Source of the DNA: Tubulanus polymorphus
Taxonomy: Eukaryota; Animalia; Nemertea
Direction of reading: 5' to 3'
DNA length: 64,000 nucleotides
Assembly: GCF_964204645.1 (NCBI RefSeq)
Contig: NC_134027.1
Coordinates: forward strand, 1,830,485 to 1,894,484
Part shown: positions 29,696-52,470 of the stretch, one piece after another
How positions within the stretch are numbered: the first letter of the stretch is position 1
How the letters are laid out: each line of letters starts with the position of its first letter
Notes under the pieces: generated by a model
Seen by the model: the letters and a program-made list of their open reading frames with translations, nothing else
Databases searched by the model: none
What the model was told of the DNA's origin: nothing
Made by a program: the position numbers and the translations under genes

Positions 29696-31963
29696 ACAGT
29701 TTTTGAATGAGGGGTTTTTGCAATTTATTGGAGAAATGCATTGACGAGCACTGATTTTTACGATCGTTTTTTGCGAACGACCGTCAACCAGTCTACTCAA
29801 CGAGGGAGCAATTTGGCGATTTGATTTGCGAGATGGCTGCGCTCAGAAGTCGATAGGGATACGATTCTCTTTCCACGTCGTTTATATGTCATGCAATCCA
29901 AACAGCATCGACCAGTTTTACACAATTTACGAAGAAAATTGACGAAATCTATCGCAAACATCGCATGCTCTTCAAACGGCCTTTCGGAGATTCAGCACCG
30001 AAAACGAATCAAATCAAACAATTTATTGACACAAAAAAACGAAATATGTTTTGCATTCTTACGGAAGCTGGAGAAACGTAATATAATGATGAAACGAAAG
30101 TGGATTTTCCTCCTATATCACTGGGCCAAACAGAACGGGTTCACTAAGTTAAATATAATATACCTAAAATTCGAATGTACTTTTTCGCAATATTTTTCAC
30201 AGAACGAGTCACGTCTGGCGAACTAAAATCGTCTCTTGACCGCGTTGTGAACGTGTATCAGACCACTTCATTATTACTGCGTAGAATTACGAGTACCTGA
30301 AGAGTAAATGTAGCGGAGCTTTTATTCAAAAACCAAGTCCATTACCCGGTTGATACGTCACAAAAACTACCCAAGATGATTGGTAACTTTTTTGGCTAAA
30401 TGACGATATTGATCGAGGTCGGCGTATTCTATCAACCTAAGTATAACGCATTCGATTAATAAAAATGTCTAAAAGGCCAGTGCCTGTGACTGATAACGGC
30501 ATTTTTTTATTGATATGTCAGGAAGGTAAATTTACGAGTTGCCGCTTCTCAATTCTCCTGATGCATATAACGTTTATCTAATCGATACAATATGAATAAA
30601 TCACCTACCCTTCGAGGTACACAAATTATCAATTTTCTATCAGAGACTGGTTTTAAACTATTGGCGGGGTATAATTTATTGGTCGCTGGAGATTTCCTCT
30701 TCTGGCCGTCCATCTGCCGCTGCGAATAAACATTCGAGTCGTATACGGCTTCGTTAATCTATAGACCAGTCTATCAACGTAAAAACCGTCGAAGATTCGT
30801 ACAGATCACGATGTTGTGTTTACAGCTGAGACTGATAATATTCGAATACGTGACGATCGCGTCTCGTAGATAGTTCGGTAATTCATCGGTTAGAATACGC
30901 TGAGTGCTTGATCGTGGGTAGTTAAAGAACCGAAAATAAATACCATAAATTACAACGAACGTCTATTGCACGTTTTTATGCAATTTGTCGTGAGAAAAGA
31001 GACATCTGTTGGGCGTCAACTTCACGCAAAAAGTTGATTACTCAATGTTTTACTTATTTTTTTTTCTTTCTTTTTTTTTAATCATCAGCGATGTGAGTAA
31101 ACAGCTGGTAGATTCTCAAATACCGTAGACTTTCTCGGAATTATTTGTTGCCGAAAGTGACGACGCATGCCATAAAAACCGATATCGAGTTCATTCTATT
31201 CCAAACAGAAAAAAAGGGCATTGGAAAAACTATTTGAACTGCAATCGAAAATAGAAATCCCCCCCCCAACTACCTCTGCCAGCTTGCTCCCCGCTCCCTC
31301 TCTATAATTCTCTCCCTCCCTTATCAACAAGAATTATATTTCTCATCTGAAAATAGGCAAACACAAAATGCCATATACATACACTTAAAATCCTCTAAGC
31401 GGTTCTTAGAAGGGGGTGCACCGACAATATATTATATTATATATAAAACCGTTTTGTTATAAGAACATTTCCATTTTACCTATATTTCACGTGTAAGAAT
31501 TTATGATAGAGATACACAGACACTTGCGAAAATCTAATAGTCGTTGTTTGCGTAATTGATGGTTTTACGAAATATGATTTCTATCTTGAAACACAATTAA
31601 TGAGTTATTCATATTTTCCACGGGAATATTTTTAAACTTAAAATATGTAGAATGCCTCGAGAAAAATAACGCGGATATCGCTTTTAACATTACCACTACA
31701 ACCGATTCGATGAATTTAAGGGAAGTGAGATATATCAAAAAATCTATATTGAAGAGTCGTGTGTGATCTGTAAACTGCGACGTCCACGTAAATGTGTATT
31801 AGTGTCGCTGCGGGTGTCCGAATGACGATTTGGATTTACAAATGATATCTGATTGTCTAACAAAGGCGATAGGTGGAACATGTTCTCGGAGTCTTTTGTC
31901 AGAATAACAGGCAGTTTATTATATTTTGTGGTATTACCGTGAAGATAATTTCTATTGTTCGGT

Positions 31964-32908
31964 ATGAGTAACGTGACTCGAATATTCGTCCCTCTCGAAT
32001 ACGCATTACTCACATCGGTAGATTTCAGGCGTCCTGATTTAGAACTAATGCTTGATAACTGCTTTACTTTTCTCTTCGTTATCTTCGGATTTATAGGAAA
32101 CAATTTCATAGTTATAATAATGTTACAGCGAAGCTTCTGGAAACTATCTTACAGTCGATTTCTGTTCACTCTGGCGATTTCCGACAACGTGCGCGTAGTC
32201 GAAGCCGCTTGTATTCTCCTTAACATTCTAGGCAAGAGATTCTTGCGGAAAAACATCGTCACATTCTACAGCGTTTATGCGGTTATTATCCACGAACAGC
32301 TGGTAGTTTTGGCAATGTGTATGAGTCCAGTTTTATTAGTTCTAGTGACGATAGAGAGACTCTGCGCTATCCGCTTCCCTTTCACTGCTAAACGATTCTG
32401 GACAACAAAAACATCGTCTATAATGTGCGCCACTCTGACTGCGGTGATTTATGGTGTTTTCTCTTTCACGTGGACGATCACTTGTGATGATCGTTCCCCG
32501 ATAAAAACGTGCACATTTCCAAGCTTTCAATATATTTTGATTGAATATGCTTTATATTCTGTGTTTATATATTTTCCGGCAGTGATTATTTCAGTAGCGA
32601 CTATAATGATGGTCGTCACGATGAGGTCGAGCGATGCCGTGTCCGCTTCAGGAAAAGGTACGACAAAAACTAATCAAGCCAGTCGTATGGTTCTGACCGT
32701 TATGATATTCTTCGTCGTAACAATGATTCCAATTTGTCTGTTTGCGTCTCTGCGTGCTGTTAAGGGTTTGTACATGGTGCTGAGACTTCCCTCCTACATC
32801 GCTTCTAAAATATTCGCTCTGAATTACGTGATGAATTTCTATCTGTATTTGTTATCAGGTAAAGAGTTTCGTACGGTGACCACCCGTTTGATAAAATGCC
32901 AGTCATGA
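31964..32908 (+). CDS. Single-exon class A GPCR, tandem copy 1, 314 aa (orphan, probable chemoreceptor or peptide-receptor-like)
   Basis: ATG at 31964. TM1 GFIGN, TM2 LAISD, TM3 IERLCAIRFP, TM5 YFP, TM7 MNFYLY followed by helix-8 GKEFR. Confidence 0.9.
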   Translation: MSNVTRIFVPLEYALLTSVDFRRPDLELMLDNCFTFLFVIFGFIGNNFIVIIMLQRSFWKLSYSRFLFTLAISDNVRVVEAACILLNILGKRFLRKNIVTFYSVYAVIIHEQLVVLAMCMSPVLLVLVTIERLCAIRFPFTAKRFWTTKTSSIMCATLTAVIYGVFSFTWTITCDDRSPIKTCTFPSFQYILIEYALYSVFIYFPAVIISVATIMMVVTMRSSDAVSASGKGTTKTNQASRMVLTVMIFFVVTMIPICLFASLRAVKGLYMVLRLPSYIASKIFALNYVMNFYLYLLSGKEFRTVTTRLIKCQS

Positions 32909-33844: not shown

Positions 33845-34077
33845 AGCAAAGCCATATATGAAATATAGTTTGAAAAGTGGTCTTCACTGGGTACGGATCT
33901 CCGTAACAATTTGGATTTATAAATCATATCTGTTTTCTAACCATAGAGAACGCATTGCTACATTTAAATCATATCACATGTTAATAAGCGGGTGTAGGTA
34001 CAGGAAGAAACGATATATCATTCGTTTTGTGATAGTACGTTTAAATTGGCTCCACATTCATCATCGTTGATGTAATA

Positions 34078-35019
34078 ATGGTTAATTCGACTCGAATATT
34101 CGCTCCACCTGAATACAGAGCACTCAGCGCTGTCGATATTCACCGGGCTCACTGGTTTCTGACGCTTGATAATCTGTACACTTTCCTGTACGTGTTCTTC
34201 GGATTCGTAGGAAACGCATTCATAGTCATTATAATGATAAAGCCAAGTTTCGCGAAGCTATCTTACAGTCGTTTCCTGTTGACTCTCGCGGTTTCAGACA
34301 ATCTGCGACTTGGCGGTTCTGCTTGTATTCTCGTGAACGTTCTAGCTATGAGATTGATCGGTGCAAATATAATCACATTCTACAGCGTTTATGCGGTTAT
34401 TATCTATGAACAACTGGTAATTTTAGGAATGTGTATGAGTCCAGTTTTATTAGTTCTGGTAACGATAGAGAGACTCTGCGCTATCCGCTTCCCTTTCACT
34501 GCTAAACGATTCTGGACAACAAAAACATCGTCTATAATGTGCGCCACTCTGACTGCGGTTATGTTTGCTATTTTCTCCTTCACGTGGACGATCACTTGTG
34601 ATGATCGTTCCCCGATAGAAAAATGCACATTTCCAACATTTGATTATGTTTTGACCGAATATGCTTTATATTCTGTGTTTATATATTTTCCGGCAGTGAT
34701 TATTTCAGTAGCGACTATAATGATGGTCGTCACGATGAGGTCGAGCGATGCGGTGTCCGCTTCAGGAAAAGGTACGACAAAAACTAATCAAGCCAGTCGT
34801 ATGGTTCTGACCGTTATGATATTCTTTGCTGTCACAACGATTCCTGTGTGTATGTTGTCGTCTCTACGTTTTGTAAAAGGCTGGTACATGGTGCTGAGAA
34901 CTCCCTCTTACGTCGCTTCTAAAATATTCGCTTTGAACAACGCGATGAATTTCTATCTATATATTTTAGCGGGTAAAGAATTTCGTTCAGTAGCCGCCCG
35001 TTTGATGAAATGCCAGTGA
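34078..35019 (+). CDS. Single-exon class A GPCR, tandem copy 2, 313 aa
   Basis: Colinear paralog of 31964-32908 (offset 2114 nt), with the same motifs GFVGN, LAVSD, IERL, MNFYLY. Confidence 0.9.
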   Translation: MVNSTRIFAPPEYRALSAVDIHRAHWFLTLDNLYTFLYVFFGFVGNAFIVIIMIKPSFAKLSYSRFLLTLAVSDNLRLGGSACILVNVLAMRLIGANIITFYSVYAVIIYEQLVILGMCMSPVLLVLVTIERLCAIRFPFTAKRFWTTKTSSIMCATLTAVMFAIFSFTWTITCDDRSPIEKCTFPTFDYVLTEYALYSVFIYFPAVIISVATIMMVVTMRSSDAVSASGKGTTKTNQASRMVLTVMIFFAVTTIPVCMLSSLRFVKGWYMVLRTPSYVASKIFALNNAMNFYLYILAGKEFRSVAARLMKCQ

Positions 35020-37834
35020 GAAAATATTACAATTTCTGGATTCGCTCAGTGAGAGCTTATGAAAGTATGGCCATCAATAACTAAATCTTATTGCATTTTA
35101 TGCGAAAGAAAAATTTTGACTTTCTTCTTGTCTGGAATATTGCTTACGCCACAGCTATCGTAGTTGCTAGTCAATGTTTGGGGTAAGTAATCCTCTTCAT
35201 GATTGCTCAACTGAGCTTATTAGTGGCCGTAACCAATTCCAGGACGATGGTGTTTCCGGGGGCGATGGACTGGATGATTGAGAGAGGATTAGAAACGATA
35301 TCCCGCGGTTAAACCGTCAATTCGCCATAGAAACGAAACATAGAAACGACTGAGAAATTGAAATATGACGTAATTTGATATATACTGATAAAATGAATAT
35401 TTGATATCATTTGATATTAGTAATTATATACATTGGTATAGATAGAATACAATCCCGTTTTACAGAAATACGTGTTCATTCCTATCAAGAGGAATAAAAA
35501 GAATATAGTGCTATGTGAGCCTGCCCGAAGACGAATTATAAAGTTATAACAATTTGTTTGCATCTTTGATATAACGGATGAGCCGGATGTTTCTTGTAAC
35601 TTTTCCATGTTAAAAGGTGCCTAAAGCGAATATGATCTTGGTTGACAGGTGTTGTTCTTACTCCTAATTTTCTTTACACCTTATACGCTGAAAACATGCA
35701 AAAACAATGGAATTTGACACCAAAACTGCTTTTAAACGCGGTTTCATGGCACTGATGAAGGTGAATCGAAGCGTGTTGATGGATTGGAGTGGACTGGACA
35801 GTGCATTCAGACAGCACATCAATCACAATACAAACATCGAGAAGACGTAACCACAGCCAGTGAGAAACCATCGAAAATATAATCTTATATGATCCATCAA
35901 AAATGAACGCATCCATGAAATGAAGAGAACTGTTGCCCAGTTCCAGCCATCATCTGGGATTCATAATGAACAGAATATCGTATCAAGGTGTCTGGGTAAG
36001 AGAAGATGAATTGATCGGTTCAGTGACGAATTTTTATTCTCAACGGCAAGCGTGAATCCGGAACGCCGATATATAAGAAACACTCGTTAAGATCAAGAAA
36101 CTCTGTGATCTATAAATTCATGAAAGATTGCATTTTTCCTCTTGCAGAGTCTGTGTGACATTTAACCGAATAGAACAATCAGCTTTATCAGAATATTTCG
36201 TGTATACATCAAAAACTAAAAATCCAGTTGATGCTGTTATATACTGTGGTGAAACACTGTAATTTATATGCTTCCACTATAACTGCCGGTTGTTGTTGTG
36301 GTGAAATAAATATCCGAACTTTTTTCTCGCGTGATCAGGGAATTCACACGATACGAACTCATCATTGTCGTTTCTTAATCCATTCCAACCCTGATACATT
36401 ACGTTTATTGATAGCACGGTGGCTATCGCTTCACTTTGTGAGACGACGTGAAGCAATTTATTAATGTAATGGCAATTTGATCTGCCGGGCTCTTAAACTA
36501 ATATACCACCGTTCAGTCGCTGCGTTGAATAAATCCGCCGAAAATAAGATTCCTTTTATTGTTAAGACGATACTGATCTGTGCAATTTTTGCGCTGAAGA
36601 ATTCGCCGAAATGAATAATCGCCAGACGACCGAAACACCCTCCGCGAATACGGCATGAAGCTTAGCGTCGTCGTGTGAAGGAGAAGAATTCGTTTTACGG
36701 AGAATTTGCTGTAGGAAAAAGCACTTTGATTGATTGAGACTCTCATTGATGTCAATTGATCTGATTTGGAATTCCTCTCATCGACCTAAAGCAACTATTC
36801 GAAACATCAAACTACACCCCGAAACAGAGAGTAGGCCTATACACAATACACAGCGTGCCTCAAAACAGTGAAAACTTACGTATTTCATCCATTAAAAAAT
36901 TGCGTAATTAGAATAAATTCAACCTCGCTGAAAATAGAAATGAATTAAGAACAAAGTGATTGACACCAAGATGTCTAATTTGTGTATATTTTGTGTATTT
37001 CATTTACTAAATAGTCTGCGATAAGAAATAGAAGGAAATTTAAAATACATCGTAAAATAAAAACACTGGATAACTGGTGGAGTTAGAAGATCACTTATTA
37101 TCTTCAAGAACCAAAAGCTCACACGCTCGCATTCATACTCTATTCATGATCCATGTAAGTATTCCCTCGATATTAATGAACGAATATTGTGTCAAAAAAA
37201 ACGCTGGAAAACAAGTGAAGTCAAAAGATGACTTTCTAAGAACCGAAATCCCACACTTTTATATACGTACATTCATACCCCATTCATACGCCATTCAAAT
37301 CCTACTCATGAAACCATGTAAGTATTCCTTCAATTAATGAATGAAGGAATATTATTAATCATTACTGAGCTTTCTCATCGGATAATTAGTACGCCTTCCA
37401 TGATCAGCGATTCCTCGTATGATTTCATTTACGATATTCATCGAATATTTTCCTGATAATAGAATAAATTCGTGTACAAGAGCGCGTTATCTTATATTTA
37501 ATTTTGCCAGGCATCACGACATGACATGTCCAAAATCAACACGAAGATTACGACTCTTCCCCCGAGGCTTGCAATCATATATGAGCTTGCATGTATACGA
37601 CGAACTGATTCTATTCCGAACAGCCATCGATTCAACATTGTCCTCATATATATAGTCATTTCTGGTCGCGGATCTTTTTCGAAGGAAATTCGTTTTCGAG
37701 ATGGAATGTTGATGATTTTTCATCACTTGGAAGAACAGTGATTGGAAAGAGTGTCTCTGCTCGAACAGCGGGGTTTGTGGAAACTAAACGATCCCGGTCG
37801 CTCGCGTCTGCCATTGCGCTGGCTCCATAAAACC

Positions 37835-40800
37835 ATGCTTGAAGACAATCAGACGACAAACGCGATGCCGCAGTGTGCCAAAATGGCCAAGAACAAACTA
37901 GTTCCGGATGAAATCAAAACTTATCAGTTTTGGAAATCCGTTCGCTGTGAATTTCTCATTACTTTGTTATTGGTTTTTATGGGCTGTGGTTCGTACAATA
38001 TCTGGCATTCGGGTACGGAATATAGCGATATCAGAGTAGCCCTGGCATTCGGCTTTAGTGTTGCTACTTTGATGCAATGTGTCGGTCACATCAGCGGTGC
38101 TCACATGAACCCTGCGGTCACTATGGCCATGTTAGTTACACGAAATGTGAGCATTTTGCGAACGCTTTTTTACATAGTTGCCCAATGCTTGGGCGGAGTA
38201 GCCGGCGCTGGGATTTTATACGGTCTAACTCCGAACACTTCCGCCACCCATTTGGGTGTCACCTACGTCCATCCAGAAGTGCCGTTAGGGCAGGCGTTTG
38301 GAATCGAGTTTATGACAACTTTTTTAATGGTTTTTACAGTTTTTGCTAACGTTGACTCGAAACGAGCGGAGATGGGATCTCGAGCACTTTCAGTTGGATT
38401 ATCTGTGATCATTGGACATCTTTTAGCTGTAAGTATTCATGATAATGATCTCACATGTTCTAAAACGAAATCTTAACTTTACGGTTGTCATTTAGTTCCA
38501 TCATAGCCGTTCTAACAACTAAAGACTAGTCTTAAAATTTACAAACACTTTTGAACGCAAGTCACGACTGTGACACTGTTTCGCAATGAAAAAGAATTCT
38601 TTAAGGCAAAACGCACACAACACAGGGATATCTACGATCAGAAACATGTTTCCATGCTTCTTTGCGTTGTGCGCGTCGGGCTTTAGCAATTATTTCGTAA
38701 CGCGTCCGGAAAGTAACGAATTTTTTCTCATCTTGTTCTCAACCGCACCTCACCGACAACAGTACCGCGTTAGAGTTAAAAATCTCATCATCTTCGGCGA
38801 GATGAAGACGTTGCAGTCTCTTTTTAAATGTCACAGCAATGAGTTTCGTACCGTCACCTCGAGACATCACCTGCTACGCGTACATGACATAATAAGACAG
38901 AGTAATTCAGGTAGATGAACGGTAGCTCGTTTCCTCCGCTGCGGGCGACGCAAACTATAACTTCTCTCCGATAAAAGGTGAAGCTTTAATAGTAAATCTC
39001 ACCTGCAGCACCTGCTTCACGTAAAAGCGTGAAAACTCTTCAAAATGATTGCGACTTCGCGATGGCATCTAGCAGCTCATGTATACCAACTTATACACCG
39101 TTATTTACTGCGATGCCGCGGGAATTGTTTCAAATACGATTTTAACATCTCTGATCGACCGAGCGGTGTGTACGCCACGATACATCCTTCAATAAACTGC
39201 CTCGAGTGAACTTCATATAGATTCGTCTATTTCAACATGAACTACTTGATTTTAAAAAAGAAAGCCGCGAGCAGAATAAACAAAGATAATAATCTATATA
39301 TACATCTATACTTATCCATATCGATAATTTCGTCTCATTAGTGAATATCTGGGCGTATTCAAAATGTGTTCGAAATTCTGTTCTCAAAAATAATAGAGCT
39401 CCGAGGGGCCTCGAACCTGTGTTGCTCGCATTAGTGACCCGTATAATGCAGCTCCTAGAAGAAATCCTAGATATGTCCCTGAAAGAATGAGTCTTATGTT
39501 AAAAGGCGAAGGAAGTACAACGATATTGCACGCGTCTATGGAGGAAACTGCGGCCGTCATTTTAGCGCTGTTACTAATAACTATCGGTTGGGATTGGGTA
39601 AACACTAAAAGCACCTAGTCCAGCGACTCTCAAGAGTGAAGCAATCATTCTTTCCATTTCGTCTAATGCGTCTATCGCGTGTATGAAAACGACAGAAATG
39701 CGGAAACGGCATTGATGCAGCAAATTAAAACTTCCGCTAAGAGAGAATTTGAAAACAAGTCTAACTGACAGTAACCACCACGGGTTTATCTCGAGCCGCT
39801 TTTGAAGATAATTACATTTTCATGTGTTCATGTCATTTTTTTTATTCCACTGTAAGCTCGGTCGGAGAGTGTACTATCGTTAACAGATAACTACATTTTC
39901 AGGATCAATTCTAAACGTCCCAGATAGAATTCATGGTGCTGGGAATTTGCTTGAGTTTATCCCTTAGAAGCGCAATCAAGCACCCGGACACCAGTGACCG
40001 GTTACATCTCCTTTTTGTAACGAATTTTAGATAGGTCTCGTAAATTCATTAATTGTATTTTTTTCTTATTGATCTAAAGGAATATCTTACATGGATCATG
40101 AATGGGGAATAAACGCGGGGGATGGGCTTTTGGTAAAAATCTATCTTCTAACTTCACCAGGTGTCTGGCGTTTTGTTTTACAACACTATTTCCTTCTATA
40201 CTTCCTTGTGTAAATTGATTCGTGAATAAAATATAAAACCTACACAAAAAATATATATGTGAGTGTATTATAAGTTACTTTGATCATGGCATCGGTCCCC
40301 GTTCGGGCCCATCATATATAGAACAACGATTCGAGGTATTTAGGCAATATTTGATTCGCTAGGGATGAAACATCTAAACCAGAATAAAGCGATTAACGGG
40401 CTGTGTAAAGGTTGGCTGCGTTTATCCGGTCTGAAGCAGTAAGGTAAGACGATCTGACACATCAAGGAGCTTAGATCCGGGTTCTCGAAGTAAATGAAGC
40501 GCATACAGATTCTAAGCTTCCTTATCATCACGGGACAGTTGACGAGTTTAAGCCGATATACTGGTAAACCATGCATCAGGTTTTGTGAATATATACGTCT
40601 TGTTGTTCATTGAGCAAAGTTTATTGAGCAATAATCTTGTTAGAAGTGAAAGATCGCCATTTAAGTAACGTCACGGTGTGGAAAAATCTGAGTCGAAATT
40701 TTGTGATCGTGTTAATGGAATTTGCCGACGATTGAAAACACGATTCAATCATCGTTACGGCGACTTCAAGGCAATCCGCTCAGTTTGATTAATGTATAAC

Positions 40801-43800
40801 CCAGCGTAAATGTTGTCCGTTCGTTTCGCAATTAGTAATAATGTGCAATAAAGGCGTAGTATACAGGGTACAACATTAACGACGTTAAAAGGCTATTTGC
40901 GTCATTTGATTTCCGTGCTGCGGTAAACTGCGACTGTCGCCATTTACGGATCCGCGTGGTCGACGTTATTACTATAATGGAGCTTAACGCCTAGTGGAGT
41001 ATAACACTTAGCATTCGGTCATATCGCATATAAGTAATTCTGAAATAAATAACCAGCGGCCATAAAAACCAGTTGCACAATATGCCTTAGACTTAAGACC
41101 AATCTAAACTCATCTTGTTTGGTGACCAATCTGATAACTTAAGACTAAAGTCTCTAATACTGAAACGGCCTTTGTTGTTTTCATTGACTCCTCCCGTTTC
41201 AATAGGCTGTAACAAACGTATCCTGTCATACCAAACGTTCCACTGGTACCTTTAAAAAAATCTTAATCGCTTTACGAATTTTGTTTTCATATATTTTGAG
41301 TATTCAGAGAATGAATATCATTAGATTACATAATCATTCGCAAAAATATCGTTTATAATTTACCGGGCAACGAACCATGCGCTGTTAACAGCTTTTATAT
41401 AACAGTCGCCACGTACATATTTTATATAAGCGAAAAGCATCAAACTGTCGACAGGGAATTATACACAATAATTTATCAGCAGAAAATCCCTGCGAGTAAT
41501 AAACGACAACTGAACGAATTCATTGGGAAATAATATACAACAACGTCTAGGAAGGCAATTTCATGAACGATTCTATAATTGAAATTATCAAAGAAGGAGA
41601 AGATTTTGTGGCCCGAGAGATTCGGCGCTATAGAAAGCGAGATCTATTGAAATTCCCCCGAGGTTGGAATTTGTCTATAAATATTTCATTGGCAGAGAGG
41701 GTCGAGAACCGAATGCAAATATATGCTACAACATCAATGGAAATGTAACTTGTATCCTGAGTGATGTAAGACCGATCGGTCTCGTTTGCCTATTGATTTG
41801 AGTTAAATATTGGAAGTCTCCGATGCTTGCAATACGAGAGCGCCATTAATGTAACGATAATTCGATTACATTCCTTCAGAAATCAGATACCTGTCAATTT
41901 CGCCGTGGTTTCCAATAGATTGCAAATTGCGTCAAATGCCAACAACGTCTGTCGCCAGCTCGGAGTTCTCCCACGAGAATCAAATCCAAACTATGGAGCA
42001 GTCCATGAGGATCGAGGATCGGCTCAAAATTATCAAGATGTATAAGAGGACCCCGAGTGCCACCAGCTATCCCGCTAGACGAAGTGCGTATCAATAGGAT
42101 AACCCATGGACAATCTGATAAAATTTAGTTCATTTTCAATGTACATGACTGTACTTTAATCTATATTTCTAGCCTCCCATTAAAAACATTTGGCAAAGCG
42201 TGTCTCTTGATAAACACAGGTTGATTTTTAAGCGTTCGTTTATAGCGCGATTATTCGATTCCTCATCCATTGAATTTGAAAAACTATGGACAGATTTCAA
42301 TTGAATCTGAGAAGAAATCCGGCATCGCTGGCGAACCTGGTGGATATTCGCTTGCCACAAGCAGAATCATCGATTCCCACAGTTGATCATTAAATTACGT
42401 ACATCAATAGATTCGGGTGGCTCCATTTCTATTCTAATCGAAGGTGGGCGACTTTTAAGATCTCATTTAACGGCACGTTATTCCCGAATCAGTCGAATCT
42501 TGACTCGATTGTCATGACATATCCGTTTACACGAGATACACCATCAGATGGAGGAAAGTTAGATCACGCAAGTTGGGAAAAATGATTCACATGAAACACA
42601 TCGGATGCTGTGCGGGTGATCGGGGGAAATCGGAGAGTTGCTTGAGAAACCTGTTCACGTATGGAGAAAATGCTGTTATTGACATAACAAATCACATGGG
42701 ACGTGACCGTTAAGCAATCAAGGTTTATCACTCTACAACGCTTTACTTTTCCTCGTCATTTATGAATATTTTACAAGACTTCGTGTCGATTTTATTGCCA
42801 TAATAATCATTCTACGTTGCCAAAATGATCTATCATTCTCGGTTCAGTTATTTGGGAAATCATGACGCAAATACCCCATACATCTAAATAAAACATGATG
42901 GTTTCAATCAATTCTGGTTCTTACATGTATAGAAGATTGCGTTTTCTCTCAACGGTACCAGGCTTCCAGGTTATCAGGTCGGGTGGGTTCCATAATCATA
43001 GCTTATTACGGTTATATAACCAATCTAGCAACTTGAGACCAGGCCTTAACTTTAAACAACACTTTTGGACCCAAGTCTCGTCTATGGACTATGTAGCAAG
43101 CCACAGATGAAATCACAGGATTTCTTATGTGTTTCAATCGTTTTCTATGTGTTCTGACGTGTACGTCATGACATACGTTTCATTGGAACTGCTCCGAAAT
43201 GTCGAGAGAGAATTTAATTGAATTTCGCCCTCACATTCACGGTCTGAAATAACTCAAAATGCCACTGCCATTATTTTCTCTACAAGCAAACTGTCAGAAG
43301 CCATCGTTCTACCACTTCTGAAACGATAATTACGTTTTGTACGCATGGAAACAAAATATAAAACGCCTTCGTTTTCTAATCTATCGCGTCATGAATATGC
43401 GCGCAGTTAAGTAACAAGTTGCGACGCAGTTCACCGTATTTTCGGATGGAACCGAGCAAGAAAGAATCGTGAGAATCTTGTAATGATTCGTCTTGTCTCC
43501 GTAGGTATAAAAGCCGCTTGAAAGGACACCGAGCTATTGATGTGTGGAACTGTTTAAGATGGCTTACGGGCAGAAACATCCAGAAGTGGCTTCGTTTATA
43601 CCCGAACAGCGGCGAAGGACAGACCTCTTTTCACGTTAAAGATTAAATTGTTGCGAGAATCTTTGTATAAAACGACGGCTCAGAAGCCGGTTAATACAGC
43701 TTTACATCAGCGCACGGATAGGAAAAAATATCTTTTCAGATAAGTAAATGAGCGGAAAGAAAACCCGACCACACGTGCCTTTGAAATCGACGAGTAAAAC

Positions 43801-46800
43801 CAACAGAAGGAAAATAATCCCGTATTCAAAATGTCTCGCTGGATGTTGCGCACCTCATTTTGAAAATGTTTAGACCACGGTAATTAATGAAACTATTTAT
43901 GAATATCGTCGTATCGACGGAGAATTGTATGGAATGGTACTCAAATTAATGGTCGTTTAATGAACAGTTTACATTAGCTCCAGTTTCTGAAGCACCTGAG
44001 GCACAACTGGTAATAATTGGAATACGTGCGCGCACCGACCGTTTGAATCTCAGTACCACCGTCCTAGTGACGTCACCAGTATTACAGCTATCAACCGGCT
44101 GTCTGTACGAACACCCTCAGACGTTAGACGGACATTCGCCATTTTCCCACAACATGTTCTTCAAGCGTCGCCACCCCCTGTAGCTGTACCCCAGATATTC
44201 TTTGAACATGAATTAGGATGGTGCCATCAATTCTAGACAGACAAACCAAATACGTCGTAATTTCAGTGGAAAACGCCGTGATATTCATACACCGTACAGT
44301 GACCCAATTGACCACGACGCAGGGAAATTAGACCGTATTACGAAATTCGCCGCGATGCCGATAGTTTTATATGTTATCTAATGAAACCTAAGAAGGGGTG
44401 ATTTAGCTATCAGCCATGGTTGGCTTCGTATCTGGATTTTTTCATTACGAATCGGCGTCACAACAGTGATTGGCTTAATTCAGGGATATTTGTTGCCGTC
44501 GAAACTGCCAAGATTGCCGTAGATAACATGCTATTTCTCTTATCCGGGTTTCGTAATGATCTAATTAGGGATGACTCCGACTCCTGGGTTTATACGAATG
44601 CTGGATCCAACTTGTCAAGTCCCGATGAAAGATGAGCGCGATTTCCATTTCGCAACTCATATAAACGAGATACTAGTTACACTGACAATACATGACTTGT
44701 ATAGAGCCAATGGCTGCCATCGGCATCAATTTCAACTTCGCTTGTTTTTCATCATTATACACTATGATAAATGTAATATAAAGTTCCTGCTGTCAAAATT
44801 CTGCAGTCGTAGCAAAATCCGTAACATCAAATTTAGCTCCTAGCACATTTACAAAATCAGACGATTTCGGTAACCTTTTTACGCTACATTCAAAGGCAGG
44901 CGGGTACGTATATATTTATTTGATATCGATGAAATGATACCCCTCCGGGGTCCGGTTCGTCCTTGACGATTTTCAATCAGTAACACCGTGAGAAAAAGAA
45001 GGATTTGCTAACCATATCACAGAGATCCGATACCGCCCGAGAGAAATAAAGGAAAAAAAACATCTCTAGATATGCAAATCAAATCCACGGGGAAAATTGC
45101 GTTAAGATGTGACCGGCAAAAAGCGCACCACACGAGATTACCATCGATTGATGTGAATCATGGTGGAACACTCGTGATCGAGAGGTTTTTGGTAGTTTAA
45201 AAAAAAAGCGATTTGAAGATTTGCATTCTCTCTTTACCTACGGCAGACAATTTGAATTTCATGACACCGATCGGAATTTATATGGCATAATAGAACACTT
45301 TTGTCACGTATTGAATTTGCAAGGATCCAATTCTGTCAGTCATGATTAGCAATCAAAACGCGAGAAAAACTAGCGACACGTGATATCTGAATGGTGCTTC
45401 ATATAACCTGCAACGCATAAATCGAAGCCCAATTTACGGGCTTAATTTCAGATTTCCATCGAGGGAAATGTCTGAATGCCGTGTTGCTGCTACAGTTCAT
45501 TGTTCGCTATAGACATCTTTGAAATTAATGGTCTTCAGAAAATTGTGCCGACGACGATAGACGAGGAGGCAATTTGGATTATGGCTACAACGATTGTATT
45601 TTATCCGTAATAGGTTTTCCTCTCATGCGAGAATTACAAAGTAATTTCACTGACTTAGAACCAAACCTATCCGCTTGGCTAGTATTCAGTTTGATGAACG
45701 AGAAGCTTAAGTTTGAACGATAGATAATTTTCCCAATGGGACTTCGCTTATTATCAATATTCATTTAGGTGTATGTTTTTGTATACGAAGTGAAGTTCGG
45801 CTAATCTATTTAGATACGACGAAGAAACTGGCGGTGAGAAAATTTTTCAAAGTTCATGGACGAATGAAATATATACCCAATTTAGATCTGAACAGGACTG
45901 GAGACAGGTGTTGATAAATTGTTTTAGATTCCATGCGTCGTTCTTATGCATGATACCGTGATCAGAATATAAATGCCAGTTAGAAGTCTATGTTTCAGCT
46001 CGACAAAGATTTCCAAAGAGTGTCGAGGCATATCTCGTATGTTACAGCACAGTGTGTACCTTTTATCAAATGAATTTTACAGACAGAAGTGTCACTAAAA
46101 TGATCCATCATCTGAATAGCGCAAGACTTTTTTGCTTTTGTACCGTCATGATTAGTTATCAAGGGACCGTTTACTGCACCTGCGACGACCATAGTTCAAT
46201 CGTTTTTAATCGTAAAAATGTACATCTTATATTCGGTATCTTTTTAGATAAATGCAACCGGAGCAAGTATGAACCCTGCTCGTTCTTTAGGTCCTGCTGT
46301 TATCATGAATAGATGGACTAATCATTGGGTACGTATCCTTCGAAATTATAACCGTAGATAGTGACATAGTGCAAACGATCAGGAATATTATCCCTGGTTT
46401 TCTAAGAACCATTGCTATACCTTTCTACTTTTTAATAATGATGAATTAGATAGACTAAAGGTTGTCGCTGTGTGGATGGAGAATGGGATTCTATACACGT
46501 TTCTAATGTATATGTCTTGTCTGAAGGGGGGAGTTCGTAGTTAATGTGAATCTAACCACAATTGATCGAATAATGAAGACAAAATTGACTCGATCGTGAG
46601 ATACATCCGTTACACATCCTTGGTTAATTAGTGGTTCCCATCGTCGGAACCGTTTCATCGTTAATGTAATCAGTTCTATACCACCAGACGGGTACACGTA
46701 TATCTTCGTCTGTCCTCTTGTGACATTCACGCGGGTATTTTCACTATTTTGTAAGTGATACCATAACATTGTCGCCCGTTCACTGATTGACAAGAAAATT

Positions 46801-47320
46801 GACAAGATTGTATTTTGTGGTTTCATTACTTGGTATTTTTTTACTATACACTCTTCGAACGTGGGGTCTGGTGTTCTTCGAAGAACCTCGGGGTTATTGG
46901 TGGAGAATTAATGGTTCTTCTGCAAAATAGAATGTAGAATGGAGTTGTTCGAGACTTATGGTTCTTGACAAAGAACCTTGAATTGGGTTTCGATTTTAGT
47001 CGATCTGCAGGTCAAGAGTGGTTATTTTCATAAGAACCATCGGATATGTATAACTGGATTATAGTCCAAAGATTAGTACATTTATTTTTCTAAATTCTGT
47101 ATTTTAGGTGTATTGGGTTGGACCTATTCTAGGTGGAATAATCGGGGGATTCACGTACGAATATACGCACGATTCGTCGCAACAAATTCAACATTTCAAA
47201 CGTTCGTTTCGAAGGAAACAAGCGAGTATGAAACGGACCCGCAGTACGCTCAGTACTAACTCGACCATATCAACAGAAATGGCGTTTACACCGACCTCCA
47301 CATTCGACAGTTTAGCGTGA
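37835..47320 (+). CDS. Aquaporin (MIP family), AQP4/big-brain-like, about 295 aa, 3 coding exons
   Basis: Exons 37835-38428, 46248-46328, 47108-47320, all phase 0 with GT-AG introns. Motifs [10 protein letters not shown] and [14 protein letters not shown], then NHW|VYWVGP. Aromatic/arginine filter F/H/A/R as in water-selective AQP4. The start ATG is uncertain (alternative in-frame ATGs downstream). Confidence 0.93.
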
Positions 47321-48567
47321 GGTATCCATGAATGATTCCGCTAAAATGTATAAAACTGAACGAAACATTTTGCTGTAAAATATTTCAATCTTAAATTGTT
47401 CTTTTTTTTATCAATTAATGTGTTATTGTTGTGTAATGCTAGTTGCCAGAATGTTCATGAACAAATTTCGATTAATTTTCTTACGATGTGAATCTCGTTC
47501 AAATCGTATCGTATACTGTTTTATGTCAGGTCTACATCGATGGATTGTAAATTTGTGCAATAAAACGAATACGATATTCCAAACCATTTCTTTTTTTTTT
47601 GCTTTGAAAAATGACGGGCTTTGAAACTAAGACATTTGTAGCGATGAACGAGAAACGTCGTTCCAACAAGTTCAAACGTTTTTAGAAGAATTAATACAAC
47701 AATGTTATTTAAAGAAAATCCGCTGCTTACAATCGAATTACACTTAATGAATTCTTACAAAATCTACACGAAACAAGAGCTTTCTCTTAAATGTCTTTCT
47801 ATGTATTTATCGAATCAAAGAGCTGCACCCCGCGAAATCACAGCAGTTTCAAGCTGCAACCCAGAGTCAAATACAAGATCAAACGAAGGAAACTAATTAC
47901 ATGTACTAATAATATTCCATTTATTCATCTTTATATCATATCAAACTTGAATGAATAATGACTAAAACTTTTAACAATTCACACAAGAATAACAAATAAA
48001 TAATTTCGTAAATATATCATGTAATCTGCTATATCTTTACATTAATAAATAAACTATACAAATAAAACTTTTTTCGGACAGTATAAATACATTGAATGTA
48101 AATCGGTGACGAATATAGATATATTTATATATAGTGAAAATATCAATAAATAGAAAATAGTGAAACATTGCACATCAGTGATTCAGGATATGATTGATGA
48201 TTAAATCTTCACATAACAACACACGCTCACGCTGTGACAGTTTACATGATGGATAGCTTCATTCCACTCATCACTCTCACAAATACTTCAGTCATAACCA
48301 TAGGAAAATTACACAGTCTCAAGAAACCATGCAAAAGGCGTAAATCTTCATATGAGCATCTTCTTCATCGGACGACAATATTCTCGAGTTGACATCATTA
48401 CCAAATAGTTACATTCATATTAGGAATATGGAATGTCATTTTATGAGGAAAATGAACACAATTCGTCATCACCAATAAAATGTACAGTAGAGATTTATAA
48501 CAACAGATGAACTCATAACATGGAATCTGTGAATTCTAATCAACTCCTTATTGTTACCGAGTTGTCA

Positions 48568-51419
48568 TCAACTGTTGATAAATTTAGCTATTATTTCATC
48601 AGTTTCGTCGTTTTCAGCGAGAAATCGTTTCCTACAAGATAAAATTGAACACTACATTATTAATCATCTTCTGACAAATTGACATCAGTTCAGATATGTG
48701 CAATTTATTTCTATTGCTGATGCGCGGTCATATATCACAATGGCGGAAGATTTTGACATCGTAATAAGTGAAAAAAATCATTTCAACTCATTCTATTTAA
48801 TTTAAGTGATTAATATAGATATCGCTTTTTAGTTTCATGAAGATACAAAGCGCCATCTATTGTCAATTCGTTACAGAGTGTATTACGTACCACAAATCAG
48901 GAAATTTGTCAATTATTTCTTCTTGCGAAACTTTTGAGGATTCGAAATTTCGCAAACACCAGCGGATGTAATTTATTGCTAAACCCTAATAAAATAAACC
49001 ATCAACTCATTTATATATCAACTGGTAAATATCTAGGGAAAATTTGTCAAATGTATAGTTTACCTGCCAAATAGATGTAGTATCGTCATCTAATTTCAAC
49101 CACGTTCGAATTTCTAGAATTCGACATTTTGTCTACAAGGAAACAGGTTTATCTTGTCAGAAGTTCATGTCATGTCAGTTAGATTGTAAACATTATTTTC
49201 TAATAATTTACCTTTCCAAGTGCCTTCTTCTCTTTGAAATCTTGTTTTTTGCTTTTCGATAAAACGGCTGCCTTTGACTTTTCACGAATTGCTCTGCACA
49301 TGATGTACCTGCAACGAAATTGTTTCCAAATAAGGAAAATTCATTAGTTCAAAGAGAAATGAATTCAAAATTTCGCTTTTCAAAATCAAAATTTTCCCTA
49401 CCACACTGTTTTCTTCTTCAACAATCCAACAACATTACTGTTGAAATCGAGGAAATAGAAAACTTCACCTTCAGAGTTATAACCACACCTAACCTGAAAA
49501 ATATCACGTAATCACAGTCAAATTCGTTTAAGTCATCATCACGTCACTGAAGTCTGTTCAAGTCATCACATCATTGAAGTACCGGTAATGGTTATTCTTT
49601 GATACAATTTTGTATTTTGAATTCAATTCACTACGCGTAAGTCACCATTTGAATAAGTTTGTCACAATAATGATGGTCTCAGCTACAACGACTTAAACTG
49701 TAAACAATATGAAATATTCTCATAAGCGATTGATGTTGTAAAATGAAGGTTCTTACTTGCTGCATTCGTAAGTCCAAATCTGACACGGGAATCAGGTCAT
49801 ATTCAACTGTATCTAATTTCAGTATTCGACCGATCTAAATAAAATATCAGCTACAGATAAGATGAAATCAAATATAATTCGATATACATTTGATGTGAAT
49901 ACAAAATACCTCAAATCCTATATGTGGCACAACACAACACAAGTCATTGGTGTCTAAATTTGAAGTTTTCGTCCAGGCAATAAATTTGAGCATTGGTCTG
50001 TAAAACACAAGAGATGAACATAGAGAACTAGATGAAATCTAATGAATAATTGATAGTTGTTAGTTTTAATGCTTTATTTCTTACCGTTCGAGATGAGATA
50101 GATTTTCGACATGTTGATGAGCTGGGGATAAAATCTCAAAAACTGCGGTGAAATGAGTGACGCAAAGAAACTCAAGCAACCTGTAGTGAAATACATAAAC
50201 ACATAGATTTCAAAAAGATTTTAGTAAAAATAATCAAAATATATGATTGTATGTAATCAACTAGCCCTACTTTTGCCTGGCTTCTTTATCCATCTGATCC
50301 AAAAAATCCGAAACAGTTTGAGCCACTTCTTTAGCAATTCTGAATCGCTGGTCAACATATTTTTCAATATCACCTGAGGAAAAAACAATCATCATAAGTG
50401 AATAAAAACTTTACAAAATATTACAAAAATCTATGTCTTACATGAACGCAAAATTGTTACTATGGTATATTCGAACTCACTTCTATTTTTGAATAACAAA
50501 TGTACATTTTTGGACCCAGCACAAATGATCTTCTCCCCTTGAACATCTATACAACTCAAATGAGCAGCTTCACCATTGGCTTTCTTAGTAGCGCAAACTA
50601 ATTCCACTTCATTGAGTTCCTAAACAAATATATAGACAAAAAAGAAAATAAATTTCAGATTTCATGGGAGATTGAAATATGTGAAAATAGCTTTGGAAAC
50701 AAATAATTTTGAACCTTAATGAAATAACGTTTCCAAGTAAAATCATCTCCTCCTGTAGTTTTATCGTCATCGTCCCCGAGACCACCGGTAAACTTCTTCA
50801 ACGCGTAAATAATACACGTCACTTCATTACCCATTCTCAACAAACAGTTTCCTCTAGCAACCTGTGGAATATCATCATTTTAATCGTCAAAAACACTCTT
50901 AATTCATTTCAAAAAATTCGATCGGTAATAGAAAATTTACCCTATTCCGAATATCATCATTGTTATCATAGATTTCATCATCCGGACCTCTTTTTTTCGA
51001 AAAAACCTTCGCATCAATAAGTGAAGCATTACAACCATCTGGTAGAATTCCAACTGGCACTTCAGTTTCTATACATTTGATATATTTATTCTGTTGAGCC
51101 CAGTACAGCCATCTGAAATAAATGATCAGCGATGTGAATGATATAACACTGAATAAAGATTTAATTTGGATTTGAATTCGACCCTGGTAAGTGAAGATTT
51201 CATGGAAATTCCCACTGAAAATTTCACTTTCTGTCGGTCTATTTACCTTTCTGCCTGTAAGGGTCGGTCTGAAACTTCACTGTCTTTAAGAATTGATTTC
51301 AAATGTTCTTTCAAAGATGTCAGGGTGAGATGAGGATTATCATCTGTATAGTTATCACACAAATATACCAGTAATTCTTCTTGAATGCGACGAGTTTGTG
51401 CGGCCATTGTTGACGTCAT
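48568..51419 (-). CDS. Putative ATP-dependent RNA ligase (T4 Rnl1 / Trl1-like adenylyltransferase), 470 aa, 13 exons
   Basis: Exons 51419-51247, 51112-50941, 50861-50715, 50619-50481, 50373-50271, 50180-50085, 49997-49910, 49834-49757, 49493-49402, 49308-49212, 49132-49064, 48985-48891, 48631-48568. All introns GT-AG with consistent phases; 1413 nt with no internal stop. Motifs in order: ARG, KKF, KANG, GSK, TAVFE, EGEVF, KKKTVWY. Alternative ATG at 51407. Confidence 0.85.
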
Positions 51420-52470
51420 TCGGAGATTTCGTCAGTCGTAGACTGGTTACCTTAATGGAACAGGCAACCAGTCTACGTCAGTCGGAGCCCGATCCTCGCC
51501 TGCCACAGCTAGGGCTAGAGTTAGGCATCCACCCGATAGATGTCAGTAAATGCAGACGTCACACGATATCACTACGCTAATTAAGTACTACTTAATGTGA
51601 TGATAATTCAAAACTTAATTCGATATTAAGCCATCTATATAAACTGAGTGGTCTGAGACAAATTCATTTAAGAGTTTGAAAATCATGAGAATAATTGAGA
51701 TAAATCTCAAACAGAAACATTTGATACTGAATTGAACACTATTTCAATGGCGGAATATGACACTAATCCGGGGGTGTAACAGGTGTCGGTTTGCAGCCAT
51801 TTTTAGACGAAAAATTAAAGGAATGCTCAATAAATTCACTCGAAACTCGTTAACCACCTGCTAAAATGTAAATATATCTCATTTCAGACACAATTTATAA
51901 CTGTTTTATTGCGTTGAAACTTAAATAGTTGTCAAAAGAAGGTGAATTATTGTGTAAATGAGGCCGGATTTCTTGGTTTCCGGGTCGCCGACGGTCGGGT
52001 GTGTGACTTGTCAAAAATTATGTATTTCTCGTTTGCATACTGTCTAAGTTGTACGTCCCAAATGTATCCGCGTTGAGGTGACCCACACTGTAGTATTACC
52101 AAAATTAAAAAGCGTGTATCATAATGAATACTGACTTAGGTTTGGTTTTAATTAGTTACCTAATCATTGGTGGTGTGTATTTAAGCTTTTACAAGTCAAT
52201 TGACTTATTGGAAAGGCACCAACACCGCATCCCATGTGGTTTGTGAAAATATCTGATCGTGAATTAAAACTACTGATAGGTTACTGACTTGGTAGTAGGT
52301 TGGTCATTTGAGCCAGTTATCCATATGTGACAAGTCTGTTGTCATAGGCCAGAAGAGACTTTCGCACCTAAGATTCGAACCCATGAATCCAGTGACTGTT
52401 GTTGGTTTAATCCACTCAATCTCCAACAATGCTCTTGTCCTCGACTACAGACCAGTTTTATTTCTTGCAG
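51420..52470. promoter_or_regulatory. Probable bidirectional promoter / 5' UTR region between the ligase gene and AP1G1
   Basis: Divergent start codons ~1.1 kb apart (51419 minus, 52517 plus). YY1-like AATGGCGG (~51746) and GCCATTTT (~51796). Acceptor TTTCTTGCAG ending at 52470 suggests a 5' UTR intron. Confidence 0.55.

What the first reader, a model, noticed from the sequence alone, without database searches (positions are those of the whole stretch)
48568..51419. Intact, intron-rich animal gene for a stand-alone T4 Rnl1/Trl1-type ATP-dependent RNA ligase
Seen: 13 small exons splice to a 470-aa open frame that the ORF track nearly misses. Motifs in order: A-R118-G, K138-F, K177-ANG (motif I, predicted adenylylated Lys), S200-K201 (Ia), TAVF-E260 (III), E340-G (IV), K358-x-K360-xxx-Y364 (V). 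Established, from recall: this order matches T4 Rnl1 (CRG, KFF, KEDG, SK, TANFE, EGYV, KIKSDWY) and yeast Trl1 (KANG, CSK, TAVAE, EGFV). Animals normally use RtcB for tRNA and XBP1 ligation; the 5'-phosphate ligases I know of in animals are lancelet RNL and human C12orf29/RLIG1. Inference: a functional 5'-P/3'-OH RNA sealing enzyme, possibly an uncharacterised animal RNA-repair family. Twelve introns and linkage to AP1G1 argue against contamination or a recent viral insertion.
Basis: partly seen in the sequence, partly recalled or inferred. Interest (0 to 1): 0.9.

Follow-up and report, generated by a model that had tools for sequence, protein, structure and literature searches.

The report
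Invertebrate sealing-only Trl1-type RNA ligase
This is a real, spliced 13-exon gene of a ribbon worm whose protein folds like the sealing half of the fungal tRNA ligase and is predicted to join broken RNA ends that carry a 2'-phosphate; it is very likely the same kind of enzyme already described in the lancelet, so it is a widespread but little-studied invertebrate gene rather than a new one.

Summary
In detail: 13 minus-strand exons, 12 GT-AG introns and a 470-codon open frame with every named motif. From Met5 on it equals RefSeq XP_074646130 of Tubulanus polymorphus, Pfam DUF7920. Contigs of run X2 skip 11 of the 12 introns exactly.

The model (pLDDT 93.5) matches fungal Trl1-LIG best (Z 26.5, 352 residues, C-domain included), ahead of T4 Rnl1 (Z 19.1, no C-domain). 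H268/R368/R371 sit where Trl1 has its 2'-phosphate-binding His-Arg-Arg triad and are intact in 88 of 90 divergent homologs. One viral relative is fused to kinase and phosphodiesterase domains and abuts a Tpt1 gene.

The lancelet ortholog is 47% identical and is very probably BfRNL (Englert 2010). That paper was not held, so the link is indirect. Verdict: a new member of a known kind, not an uncharacterised family. Activity is untested here and the cellular job is unknown. The scan found this family three times before on other DNA.

The parts
51247..51419 (-). exon 1, coding part (Met1 at 51419; likely true start Met5 at 51407)
   Evidence: joint 51112/51247 in X2
50941..51112 (-). exon 2 (aa 58-115; conserved P101-D102-D103, candidate ligand of the second metal)
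50715..50861 (-). exon 3 (aa 116-164; R118-G, K138-F139, GGLGDDDD insert)
50481..50619 (-). exon 4 (aa 165-211; motif I K177-A-N179-G with the K177 codon at 50581-50583; motif Ia S200-K201)
   Evidence: K177 in 117 of 117 rows of A1
50271..50373 (-). exon 5 (aa 211-245)
50085..50180 (-). exon 6 (aa 245-277; motif III E260 at 50135-50137; triad H268 at 50111-50113)
49910..49997 (-). exon 7 (aa 277-306; F282, candidate motif IIIa aromatic residue)
49757..49834 (-). exon 8 (aa 307-332)
49402..49493 (-). exon 9 (aa 333-363; motif IV E340-G341; motif V K358-x-K360)
49212..49308 (-). exon 10 (aa 363-395; first helix of the C-domain with Y364 and triad R368 at 49293-49295, R371 at 49284-49286)
49064..49132 (-). 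exon 11 (aa 396-418; C-domain, R399)
48891..48985 (-). exon 12 (aa 419-450; C-domain)
48568..48631 (-). exon 13, coding part, ending in TGA
48119..48567 (-). 3' untranslated region, as far as X2 contigs reach; candidate AATAAA further on at 47920-47925
   Evidence: table 8 (records 4 and 5)

Best explanation
The gene encodes a stand-alone ligase domain with the fold of fungal tRNA ligase (Trl1-LIG, Rnl6 clade), predicted to seal RNA breaks with 5'-phosphate and 3'-OH/2'-phosphate ends, and likely the ortholog of lancelet BfRNL. Shown here: the gene, its splicing, the predicted fold and the conserved residues. Inferred from the Chaetomium Trl1 structure: (1) K177 attacks ATP to form lysyl-AMP; K358 and K360 hold the alpha phosphate; R118, K138 and K201 hold the gamma phosphate; N179, E260 and E340 hold the catalytic metal through water. 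(2) AMP passes to the RNA 5'-phosphate. (3) H268, R368 and R371 grip the 2'-phosphate and aim the 3'-OH, giving a 3'-5' bond with a 2'-phosphate left at the junction. The protein has no kinase or phosphodiesterase domain, so separate healing enzymes (a PNK/CPDase or Clp1 plus a 2H enzyme) would prepare the ends, and Tpt1 would remove the 2'-phosphate. These partners were not checked in this animal. The most likely cellular job, the least supported step, is repair or back-up splicing of nuclease-cut tRNA or mRNA alongside RtcB.
For: Fold: AF2 pLDDT 93.5, pTM 0.92. Foldseek ranks 1-7 are all fungal Trl1-LIG (best E 1.3e-10, TMq 0.56), T4 Rnl1 is rank 8 (TMq 0.44), capping enzyme rank 43 (TMq 0.22). 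VIA-align: 6n67 Z 26.5, rmsd 3.3, 352 aligned, chain 21-402; T4 Rnl1 Z 19.1, rmsd 3.0, 248 aligned, chain 0-278 only. The C-domain folded alone has five helices, as Trl1 328-406 has (PMC6379707). Its best match among 48,161 chains is Trl1 9r3w, residues 327-407 (Z 7.8, rmsd 2.8, 77 aligned); counting from the first aligned residue puts R368/R371 on R334/R337 if the helix is ungapped. Triad intact in 113 of 115 rows of A1 and 88 of 90 rows of A2. H268 is E+8 from motif III; in fungi the His is E+9 (PMC11404444). Family context: L002 encodes ligase + kinase (below cut-off) + tRNA_lig_CPD (E 8.7e-11) and overlaps a Tpt1 gene (E 1e-32); P0234, P0267 and L070 are also kinase-fused. Lancelet link: B. 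floridae P0134 is 47% identical over 424 aa and groups with the window protein (SH-aLRT 95, 90). Its RefSeq accession XP_035679797 differs from the B. floridae RTCB and C12orf29 accessions given in PMC10680797. BfRNL is described as stand-alone, Rnl1-like, 2'-PO4-requiring and weakly similar to yeast and plant ligases.
Against: No activity was measured. The BfRNL paper and the supplement that may give its accession could not be read, and no held paper names the lancelet ortholog's accessions. Its motif I lysine is K184, which matches my recollection of a 'K184A' BfRNL mutant, but that is recalled and a paper search did not confirm it. Sequence profiles alone did not reach Trl1-LIG at E<=10; the A2 profile reached T4 Rnl1 weakly (E 0.047). 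The isolated C-domain's Z of 7.8 is tied within 1 with unrelated helical proteins (7.4, 7.3, 7.2), and Foldseek found nothing for it at E<=0.001. Residue-to-residue mapping comes from ranges and spacing, not from inspected coordinates. Spacing differs by one residue from fungi at both the His and the Arg pair.
Confidence: 0.85

Rival explanations
1. It is an ATP-dependent RNA ligase of T4 Rnl1 or RLIG1 behaviour that seals ordinary 3'-OH/2'-OH ends (general RNA repair or circularisation), and the conserved His and Args bind backbone phosphate.
For: The only ligase reached in PDB by sequence profile is T4 Rnl1 (E 0.047). Atlas feature neighbours are mostly viral RNA_lig_T4_1 clusters. Trl1-type enzymes vary in stringency (PMC12440814 passages; PMC11404444 discussion).
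Against: T4 Rnl1's C-domain does not align while Trl1's does. The triad is near-invariant. A relative sits beside Tpt1. BfRNL is reported to need the 2'-PO4.
Confidence: 0.07
2. It is a Trl1-type 2'-phosphate ligase, but BfRNL is a different lancelet protein, so this is a second animal family with no characterised member.
For: The BfRNL sequence was not seen. All named members are labelled uncharacterised, hypothetical, DUF7920 or 'actin-binding protein IPP-like', apart from one UniRef 'T4 RNA ligase 1-like' label. DUF7920/PF25536 occurs in no held paper.
Against: Only one Branchiostoma cluster appears among the 120 listed hits. It fits every second-hand description of BfRNL. K184 matches the recalled mutant.
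Confidence: 0.06
3. It is a catalytically repurposed nucleotidyltransferase (adenylylating RNA or protein without sealing), a DNA ligase, or a capping enzyme.
For: All share motifs I-V (established knowledge; PMC6379707 passage).
Against: DNA ligases score Z 8.5 or less, apart from Aquifex 3qwu (Z 16.8), which its depositors call a putative DNA ligase and which ranks with the archaeal RNA ligases. The capping enzyme has TMq 0.22. The C-domain is all-helical, not an OB fold.
Confidence: 0.02

Closest known systems
BfRNL, stand-alone RNA ligase of Branchiostoma floridae (Englert et al. 2010, PMID 20837552; paper not seen, known here from passages of PMC3400036, PMC10946426, PMC10680797, PMC4408790)
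   Same: Animal, ligase-only, Rnl1-like, weak similarity to yeast and plant ligases. The B. floridae protein of this family is 47% identical over 424 aa and lies in the same supported clade.
   Different: Different phylum (Nemertea). No biochemistry here. That the B. floridae protein is BfRNL is inferred, not read from the paper.
[quoted passage not shown]
   Same: Whole fold including the five-helix C-domain (Z 26.5, 352 aligned). Motifs I, Ia, III, IV, V, the upstream Arg and Lys-Phe, and the His-Arg-Arg triad.
   Different: About 15% identity. No fused kinase or CPD (as in Mucorales). Acidic GGLGDDDD insert after K138-F139. SKNVH in place of SKHS. Likely Phe in place of His at motif IIIa. 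His at E+8 and Args at K+8/K+11, against E+9 and K+9/K+12.
T4 RNA ligase 1 (Rnl1; PDB 2C5U, 5TT6)
   Same: N-subdomain and adenylyltransferase core (Z 19.1, rmsd 3.0, 248 aligned); motif order.
   Different: Its C-domain beyond residue 278 does not align. [quoted passage not shown]
Panulirus argus virus 1 gene 3 'T4 RNA ligase' and the Cafeteria roenbergensis virus ligase
   Same: Best viral structural match (TMq 0.80, E 2.5e-31; CroV TMq 0.64). PMC6960288 already calls it a distinct RNA ligase with close animal homologs.
   Different: Viral; activity not reported in the passages seen.
Human RLIG1/C12orf29
   Same: An animal ATP-dependent 5'-P/3'-OH RNA ligase (PMC13247085 passages).
   Different: A separate gene: B. 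floridae carries its own C12orf29 ortholog, XP_035678444, distinct from this family's XP_035679797.

Membership tests
Trl1-LIG / Rnl6 clade | Nucleotidyltransferase motifs I (KxNG), Ia, III, IV, V with Lys, Lys, Glu, Glu, Lys-x-Lys | tested here: met
   K177 117/117, K201 117/117, E260 117/117, E340 116/117, K358 116/117, K360 116/117 in A1; 89-90 of 90 in A2
Trl1-LIG / Rnl6 clade | Rnl1-like N-subdomain with gamma-phosphate Arg and Lys-Phe (Cth R99, K120-F121) | tested here: met
   R118 89/90, K138 90/90, F139 88/90; alignment to 6n67 starts at chain residue 21
Trl1-LIG / Rnl6 clade | Unique helical C-domain (Cth 328-406), the clade-defining feature | tested here: met
   The whole-model alignment runs to chain residue 402-405 for Trl1 but 278 for T4 Rnl1. 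The isolated domain's rank 1 of 48,161 is Trl1 327-407, Z 7.8, rmsd 2.8, 77 aligned. On its own that Z is tied with unrelated helical rows, and Foldseek gave nothing.
Trl1-LIG / Rnl6 clade | His-Arg-Arg triad after motifs III and V | tested here: met
   H268/R368/R371 intact in 88 of 90 and 113 of 115 rows; register agrees with R334/R337; side-chain geometry not inspected
Trl1-LIG / Rnl6 clade | Requirement for a 2'-phosphate in sealing | not testable with these tools
   Needs an assay; indirect support from the Tpt1 neighbour of L002
Trifunctional Trl1 (LIG-KIN-CPD) | Kinase and cyclic phosphodiesterase on the same chain | tested here: not met
   The frame ends at residue 470 and X2 contigs run on into the 3' UTR; Pfam finds only DUF7920 above cut-off
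BfRNL orthologs | Orthology to the B. floridae member of this family | tested here: met
   47% over 424 aa; same clade, SH-aLRT 95 and 90, quick trees without bootstrap
BfRNL orthologs | That B. floridae protein is the published BfRNL sequence | tested here: inconclusive
   Paper not held; accessions in no held paper; fits second-hand descriptions; K184 matches a recalled mutant name
BfRNL orthologs | A separate PNK/CPDase healing gene in the same genome | not testable with these tools
   No whole genome is held for this window
T4 Rnl1 family | Rnl1-specific C-terminal domain | tested here: not met
   2c5u and 5tt6 (375 aa) align only over chain residues 0-278
RLIG1/C12orf29 | Structural or sequence match to RLIG1 | tested here: inconclusive
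   Not listed, which does not exclude it; the lancelet has a separate C12orf29 gene
Pfam DUF7920 (PF25536) | Score above the gathering cut-off | tested here: met
   44 bits against a cut-off of 27, E 2e-11

The most novel reading that the evidence does not exclude
A fungal-style heal-and-seal RNA pathway (2'-phosphate ligase plus separate healing enzymes plus Tpt1) is ancestral in choanoflagellates and animals and still works in many invertebrate phyla, not just the lancelet. It would serve there as a second route beside RtcB, repairing nuclease-cut tRNA or mRNA under stress or viral attack, which would explain why crustacean viruses and giant-virus-like contigs carry the ligase, some fused to healing domains and next to Tpt1. 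DUF7920 would then be the animal, protist and viral branch of the Rnl6 clade.
Probability: 0.35. Interest if true: 0.7.

Novelty: new member of a known kind. Interest (0 to 1): 0.4.

Why it matters
Reviews still describe Trl1-type ligation as fungal and plant, with the lancelet as a lone exception (PMC4090602, PMC4931112; the passages seen of the 2026 review PMC13247085 contrast Trl1 in plants and fungi with RTCB in all animals and hold no mention of 'lancelet'). The named hits show the gene in nemerteans, molluscs, annelids, a bryozoan, rotifers, a tardigrade, crustaceans, a springtail, hemichordates, lancelets, a sponge, choanoflagellates and several protists, all still labelled as unknown. 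This gives DUF7920 a function and a testable 2'-phosphate site. It also makes an open question testable in oysters, snails, rotifers or shrimp: what does a second, 2'-phosphate-leaving RNA ligase do in animals that also have RtcB? It bears too on the selectivity of Trl1-directed antifungals towards invertebrates. The single gene is an ordinary ortholog.

Tried and rejected
Contamination or recent viral insertion: rejected. The gene lies between an aquaporin gene (MIP, E 1e-50) and AP1G1 (Adaptin_N partial match, E 1.5e-7, below cut-off on one exon). 8 of its 12 intron positions recur with the same phase in unnamed loci at 46-67% protein identity (12 hits in 72 tests over 6 loci picked by eye from 79; 0 of 1152 shifted decoys; L057 and L059 gave none at the strict threshold). 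Other intron-bearing loci (L035, L036, L064) show different break points by eye.

Pseudogene: rejected; the frame is open, and 4 of 5 exonic variants among 24 listed places are synonymous.

No RNA holder listed; the four runs have no library record and come from at most 2 samples of 1 study.

Single-exon Pfam scans gave nothing above cut-off. Sequence searches of PDB with P0001, A1 and P0272 found no ligase. tblastn against 50,697 phage records: no match. The prokaryote collections were not searched successfully, so presence in bacteria is untested. RLIG1 was not listed in the fold searches; this is no evidence either way. Careful (bootstrap) trees did not finish in two runs, so only quick trees are cited. 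No vertebrate, winged insect, nematode, echinoderm or cnidarian name appears among the listed hits, but the lists are cut at 120 and use a word index, so loss is not shown. The name 'actin-binding protein IPP-like' on some homologs is unsupported: Pfam finds no kelch or BTB domain in P0004. Rfam near the gene: nothing near a gathering score. Paper searches for BfRNL details. No complex was folded.

Full report
Observation. The region holds a minus-strand gene from 51419 to 48568. Exon 4 used alone as a query found a 100% match, RefSeq XP_074646130 / LOC141902347 of the nemertean Tubulanus polymorphus, which equals the model from Met5 on. Met5 has the better start context. Contigs of run X2 skip 11 of the 12 introns at the predicted ends and cover only exons and 3' UTR. 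Intron 3 lies at a break between two contigs, beside a variant site. The run has no library record, so I read it as transcript-derived from its content; a processed DNA copy is not excluded. Of 24 variant places, 5 are exonic and 4 of these are synonymous.

Genomic setting and age. The gene lies tail to tail with an aquaporin gene and head to head with AP1G1, about 1.1 kb away. Eight of its 12 intron positions recur in phase in unnamed eukaryotic loci (12 hits in 72 tests over 6 of 79 loci, picked by eye; 0 of 1152 decoys). In quick trees it groups with lophotrochozoans, and these with lancelets and hemichordates (SH-aLRT 95 with 71 rows; 90 with 30 rows). A sponge and choanoflagellates lie outside the bilaterian group; deeper branches are less resolved. 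This is an old, vertically inherited gene.

Family. A full-length search gave 202 hits among 5477 candidates, 120 listed. A profile of 117 of these (two isoforms and one partial match left out) found 1657 representatives at E<=0.001 and 294 at E<=1e-30. Named members: molluscs, annelids, nemerteans, a bryozoan, rotifers, a tardigrade, barnacles, copepods, decapods, krill, a springtail, hemichordates, lancelets, Sycon, Monosiga, Salpingoeca, Pyxidicula, Pythium, Albugo, Plasmodiophora, Percolomonas. The Pfam label is DUF7920, with sub-threshold hits to RNA_lig_T4_1 in several members.

Structure. The AF2 model is confident (pLDDT 93.5). Foldseek ranks fungal Trl1-LIG first to seventh and T4 Rnl1 eighth. 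VIA-align gives Trl1 Z 26.5 (rmsd 3.3, 352 aligned, chain 21-402), T4 Rnl1 Z 19.1 (rmsd 3.0, 248 aligned, chain 0-278), archaeal ligases Z 15-17, and the rest 12 or less. For scale, Trl1 against T4 Rnl1 was reported as Z 21.6 over 252 residues (PMC6379707). The Rnl6 clade is defined by Trl1's five-helix C-domain, 328-406 (same paper). The last 110 residues, folded alone, form five helices, and their best match among 48,161 chains is Trl1 327-407 (Z 7.8, rmsd 2.8, 77 aligned). That score is tied with unrelated helical proteins, and Foldseek found nothing for the piece. The weight lies in its agreement with the whole-model result. Sequence profiles alone did not reach Trl1-LIG.

Active site. Against the Chaetomium table: R118 = R99, K138-F139 = K120-F121, K177 = K148, N179 = N150, S200-K201 = S168-K169, E260 = E218, H268 = H227, E340-G341 = E300-G301, K358/K360 = K323/K325, R368/R371/E372 = R334/R337/E338. 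This mapping is by motif order and spacing, and for the arginines by the register; I did not see coordinates. H227, R334 and R337 enforce 2'-phosphate specificity in fungi (PMC11404444 abstract and discussion; PMC12440814 passages). The counterpart triad is intact in 113 of 115 rows of A1 and 88 of 90 rows of A2 (22 chosen first hits plus 68 near full-length picks from the 150 listed). H184 and H204 are as well conserved, so conservation alone does not single out H268; its position does.

Guilt by association. A viral scan gave 2 loci from 32 pattern matches. L002 encodes an 815-aa protein with DUF7920, a kinase-like part (hits to Mucorales kinase structures, E 1.6e-5) and a tRNA-ligase CPD domain, and it overlaps tail to tail with a Tpt1/KptA gene. 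Tpt1 removes the 2'-phosphate that Trl1-type ligases leave. L070, P0234 and P0267 are kinase-fused too, in two domain orders. The Tpt1 linkage is one case. L001 is an intact ligase-only viral copy that nests among decapod sequences (SH-aLRT 97, long branch). The best viral structural match is the Panulirus argus virus 1 ligase, already noted as having close animal homologs (PMC6960288 passages).

Relation to BfRNL. The B. floridae member is 47% identical over 424 residues. BfRNL is described as a stand-alone, 2'-PO4-requiring ligase with weak similarity to yeast and plant enzymes that complements yeast trl1-delta together with a healing module (passages). The lancelet's RTCB and C12orf29 have other accessions. 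One Branchiostoma cluster of 8 sequences appears in the lists. Its motif I lysine is residue 184, which matches my recollection of a K184A mutant; that is recalled and unconfirmed. The original paper was not held, and the supplement of PMC3400036, which may list the accession, could not be read. I put the identity at about 90%.

Papers and what I saw. PMC3400036, PMC10680797, PMC5434554, PMC4090602, PMC10946426, PMC6960288, PMC4931112, PMC12440814, PMC4408790, PMC13247085: passages only. PMC6379707: passages and Conclusions. PMC11404444: abstract and Discussion. PMC11494293: search listing only. Englert 2010: nothing. DUF7920 and PF25536 occur in no held paper, nor do the lancelet accessions.

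Mechanism, shown and inferred. Shown: gene, splicing, predicted fold, conserved residues, no healing domains. Inferred: three-step adenylyl transfer, 2'-phosphate dependence, partners in trans. Unknown: the substrate in vivo. RtcB is reported to be kept in all animals, so a repair or back-up role is more likely than sole tRNA splicing; RtcB and the partner genes could not be checked in this genome.

Verdict. Real, and probably active. A new member of a known but neglected kind. The scan reported the same family three times on other DNA, with similar readings; I looked these up after forming my own reading. Interest 0.4.

Noticed in passing
window 51430-51484: 23-nt inverted repeat with a 9-nt loop, 11 nt upstream of Met1. 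It folds as RNA at -38.4 kcal/mol, z -4.75, 0 of 200 shuffles as good. No Rfam match near threshold. X2 contigs stop at 51405, so whether it is transcribed is unknown.
   Followed up: partly
L002 2860-5307 (+) and 5186-5704 (-): Viral contig with a ligase-kinase-CPD protein of this family overlapping a Tpt1 gene: a complete predicted heal-seal-dephosphorylate set.
   Followed up: partly
L070 4135-7218: 1027-aa protein with kinase, CPD-like HxT motifs (seen by eye) and ligase in that order, beside a DHFR-thymidylate synthase gene on a giant-virus-like contig; P0267 has the same order, P0234 has ligase-kinase first.
   Followed up: partly
L004-L022: Intronless copies, some on contigs of 8-13 kb, mostly with RxxRQ in place of RxxRE: a lineage that lost its introns, or retrocopies.
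   Followed up: no
P0092, P0107 and similar 680-710 aa members: Copepod (Neocalanus) and related members carry an extra C-terminal region with a sub-threshold match to the B3/4 domain (PF03483; E 4e-6 and 1e-4), a possible RNA-binding add-on.
   Followed up: no
tree: The malacostracan clade holds about 17 unnamed, partly long-branched members and viral L001; Petrolisthes, Meganyctiphanes and Brachionus each show two clusters. Possible expansion or host-to-virus capture in crustaceans.
   Followed up: partly
P0164, P0185: Family members joined to a Methyltransf_16 domain in two representatives; may be real fusions or merged gene models.
   Followed up: no
window 22914-23993, 31949-32905, 34045-35016 (+): Three long single-exon frames that look like G-protein-coupled receptor genes by eye, the last two similar to each other.
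   Followed up: no
window 37742-47340 (+) and 52517 onward (+): Aquaporin gene (MIP, E 1e-50) and AP-1 gamma adaptin gene flanking the ligase.
   Followed up: partly
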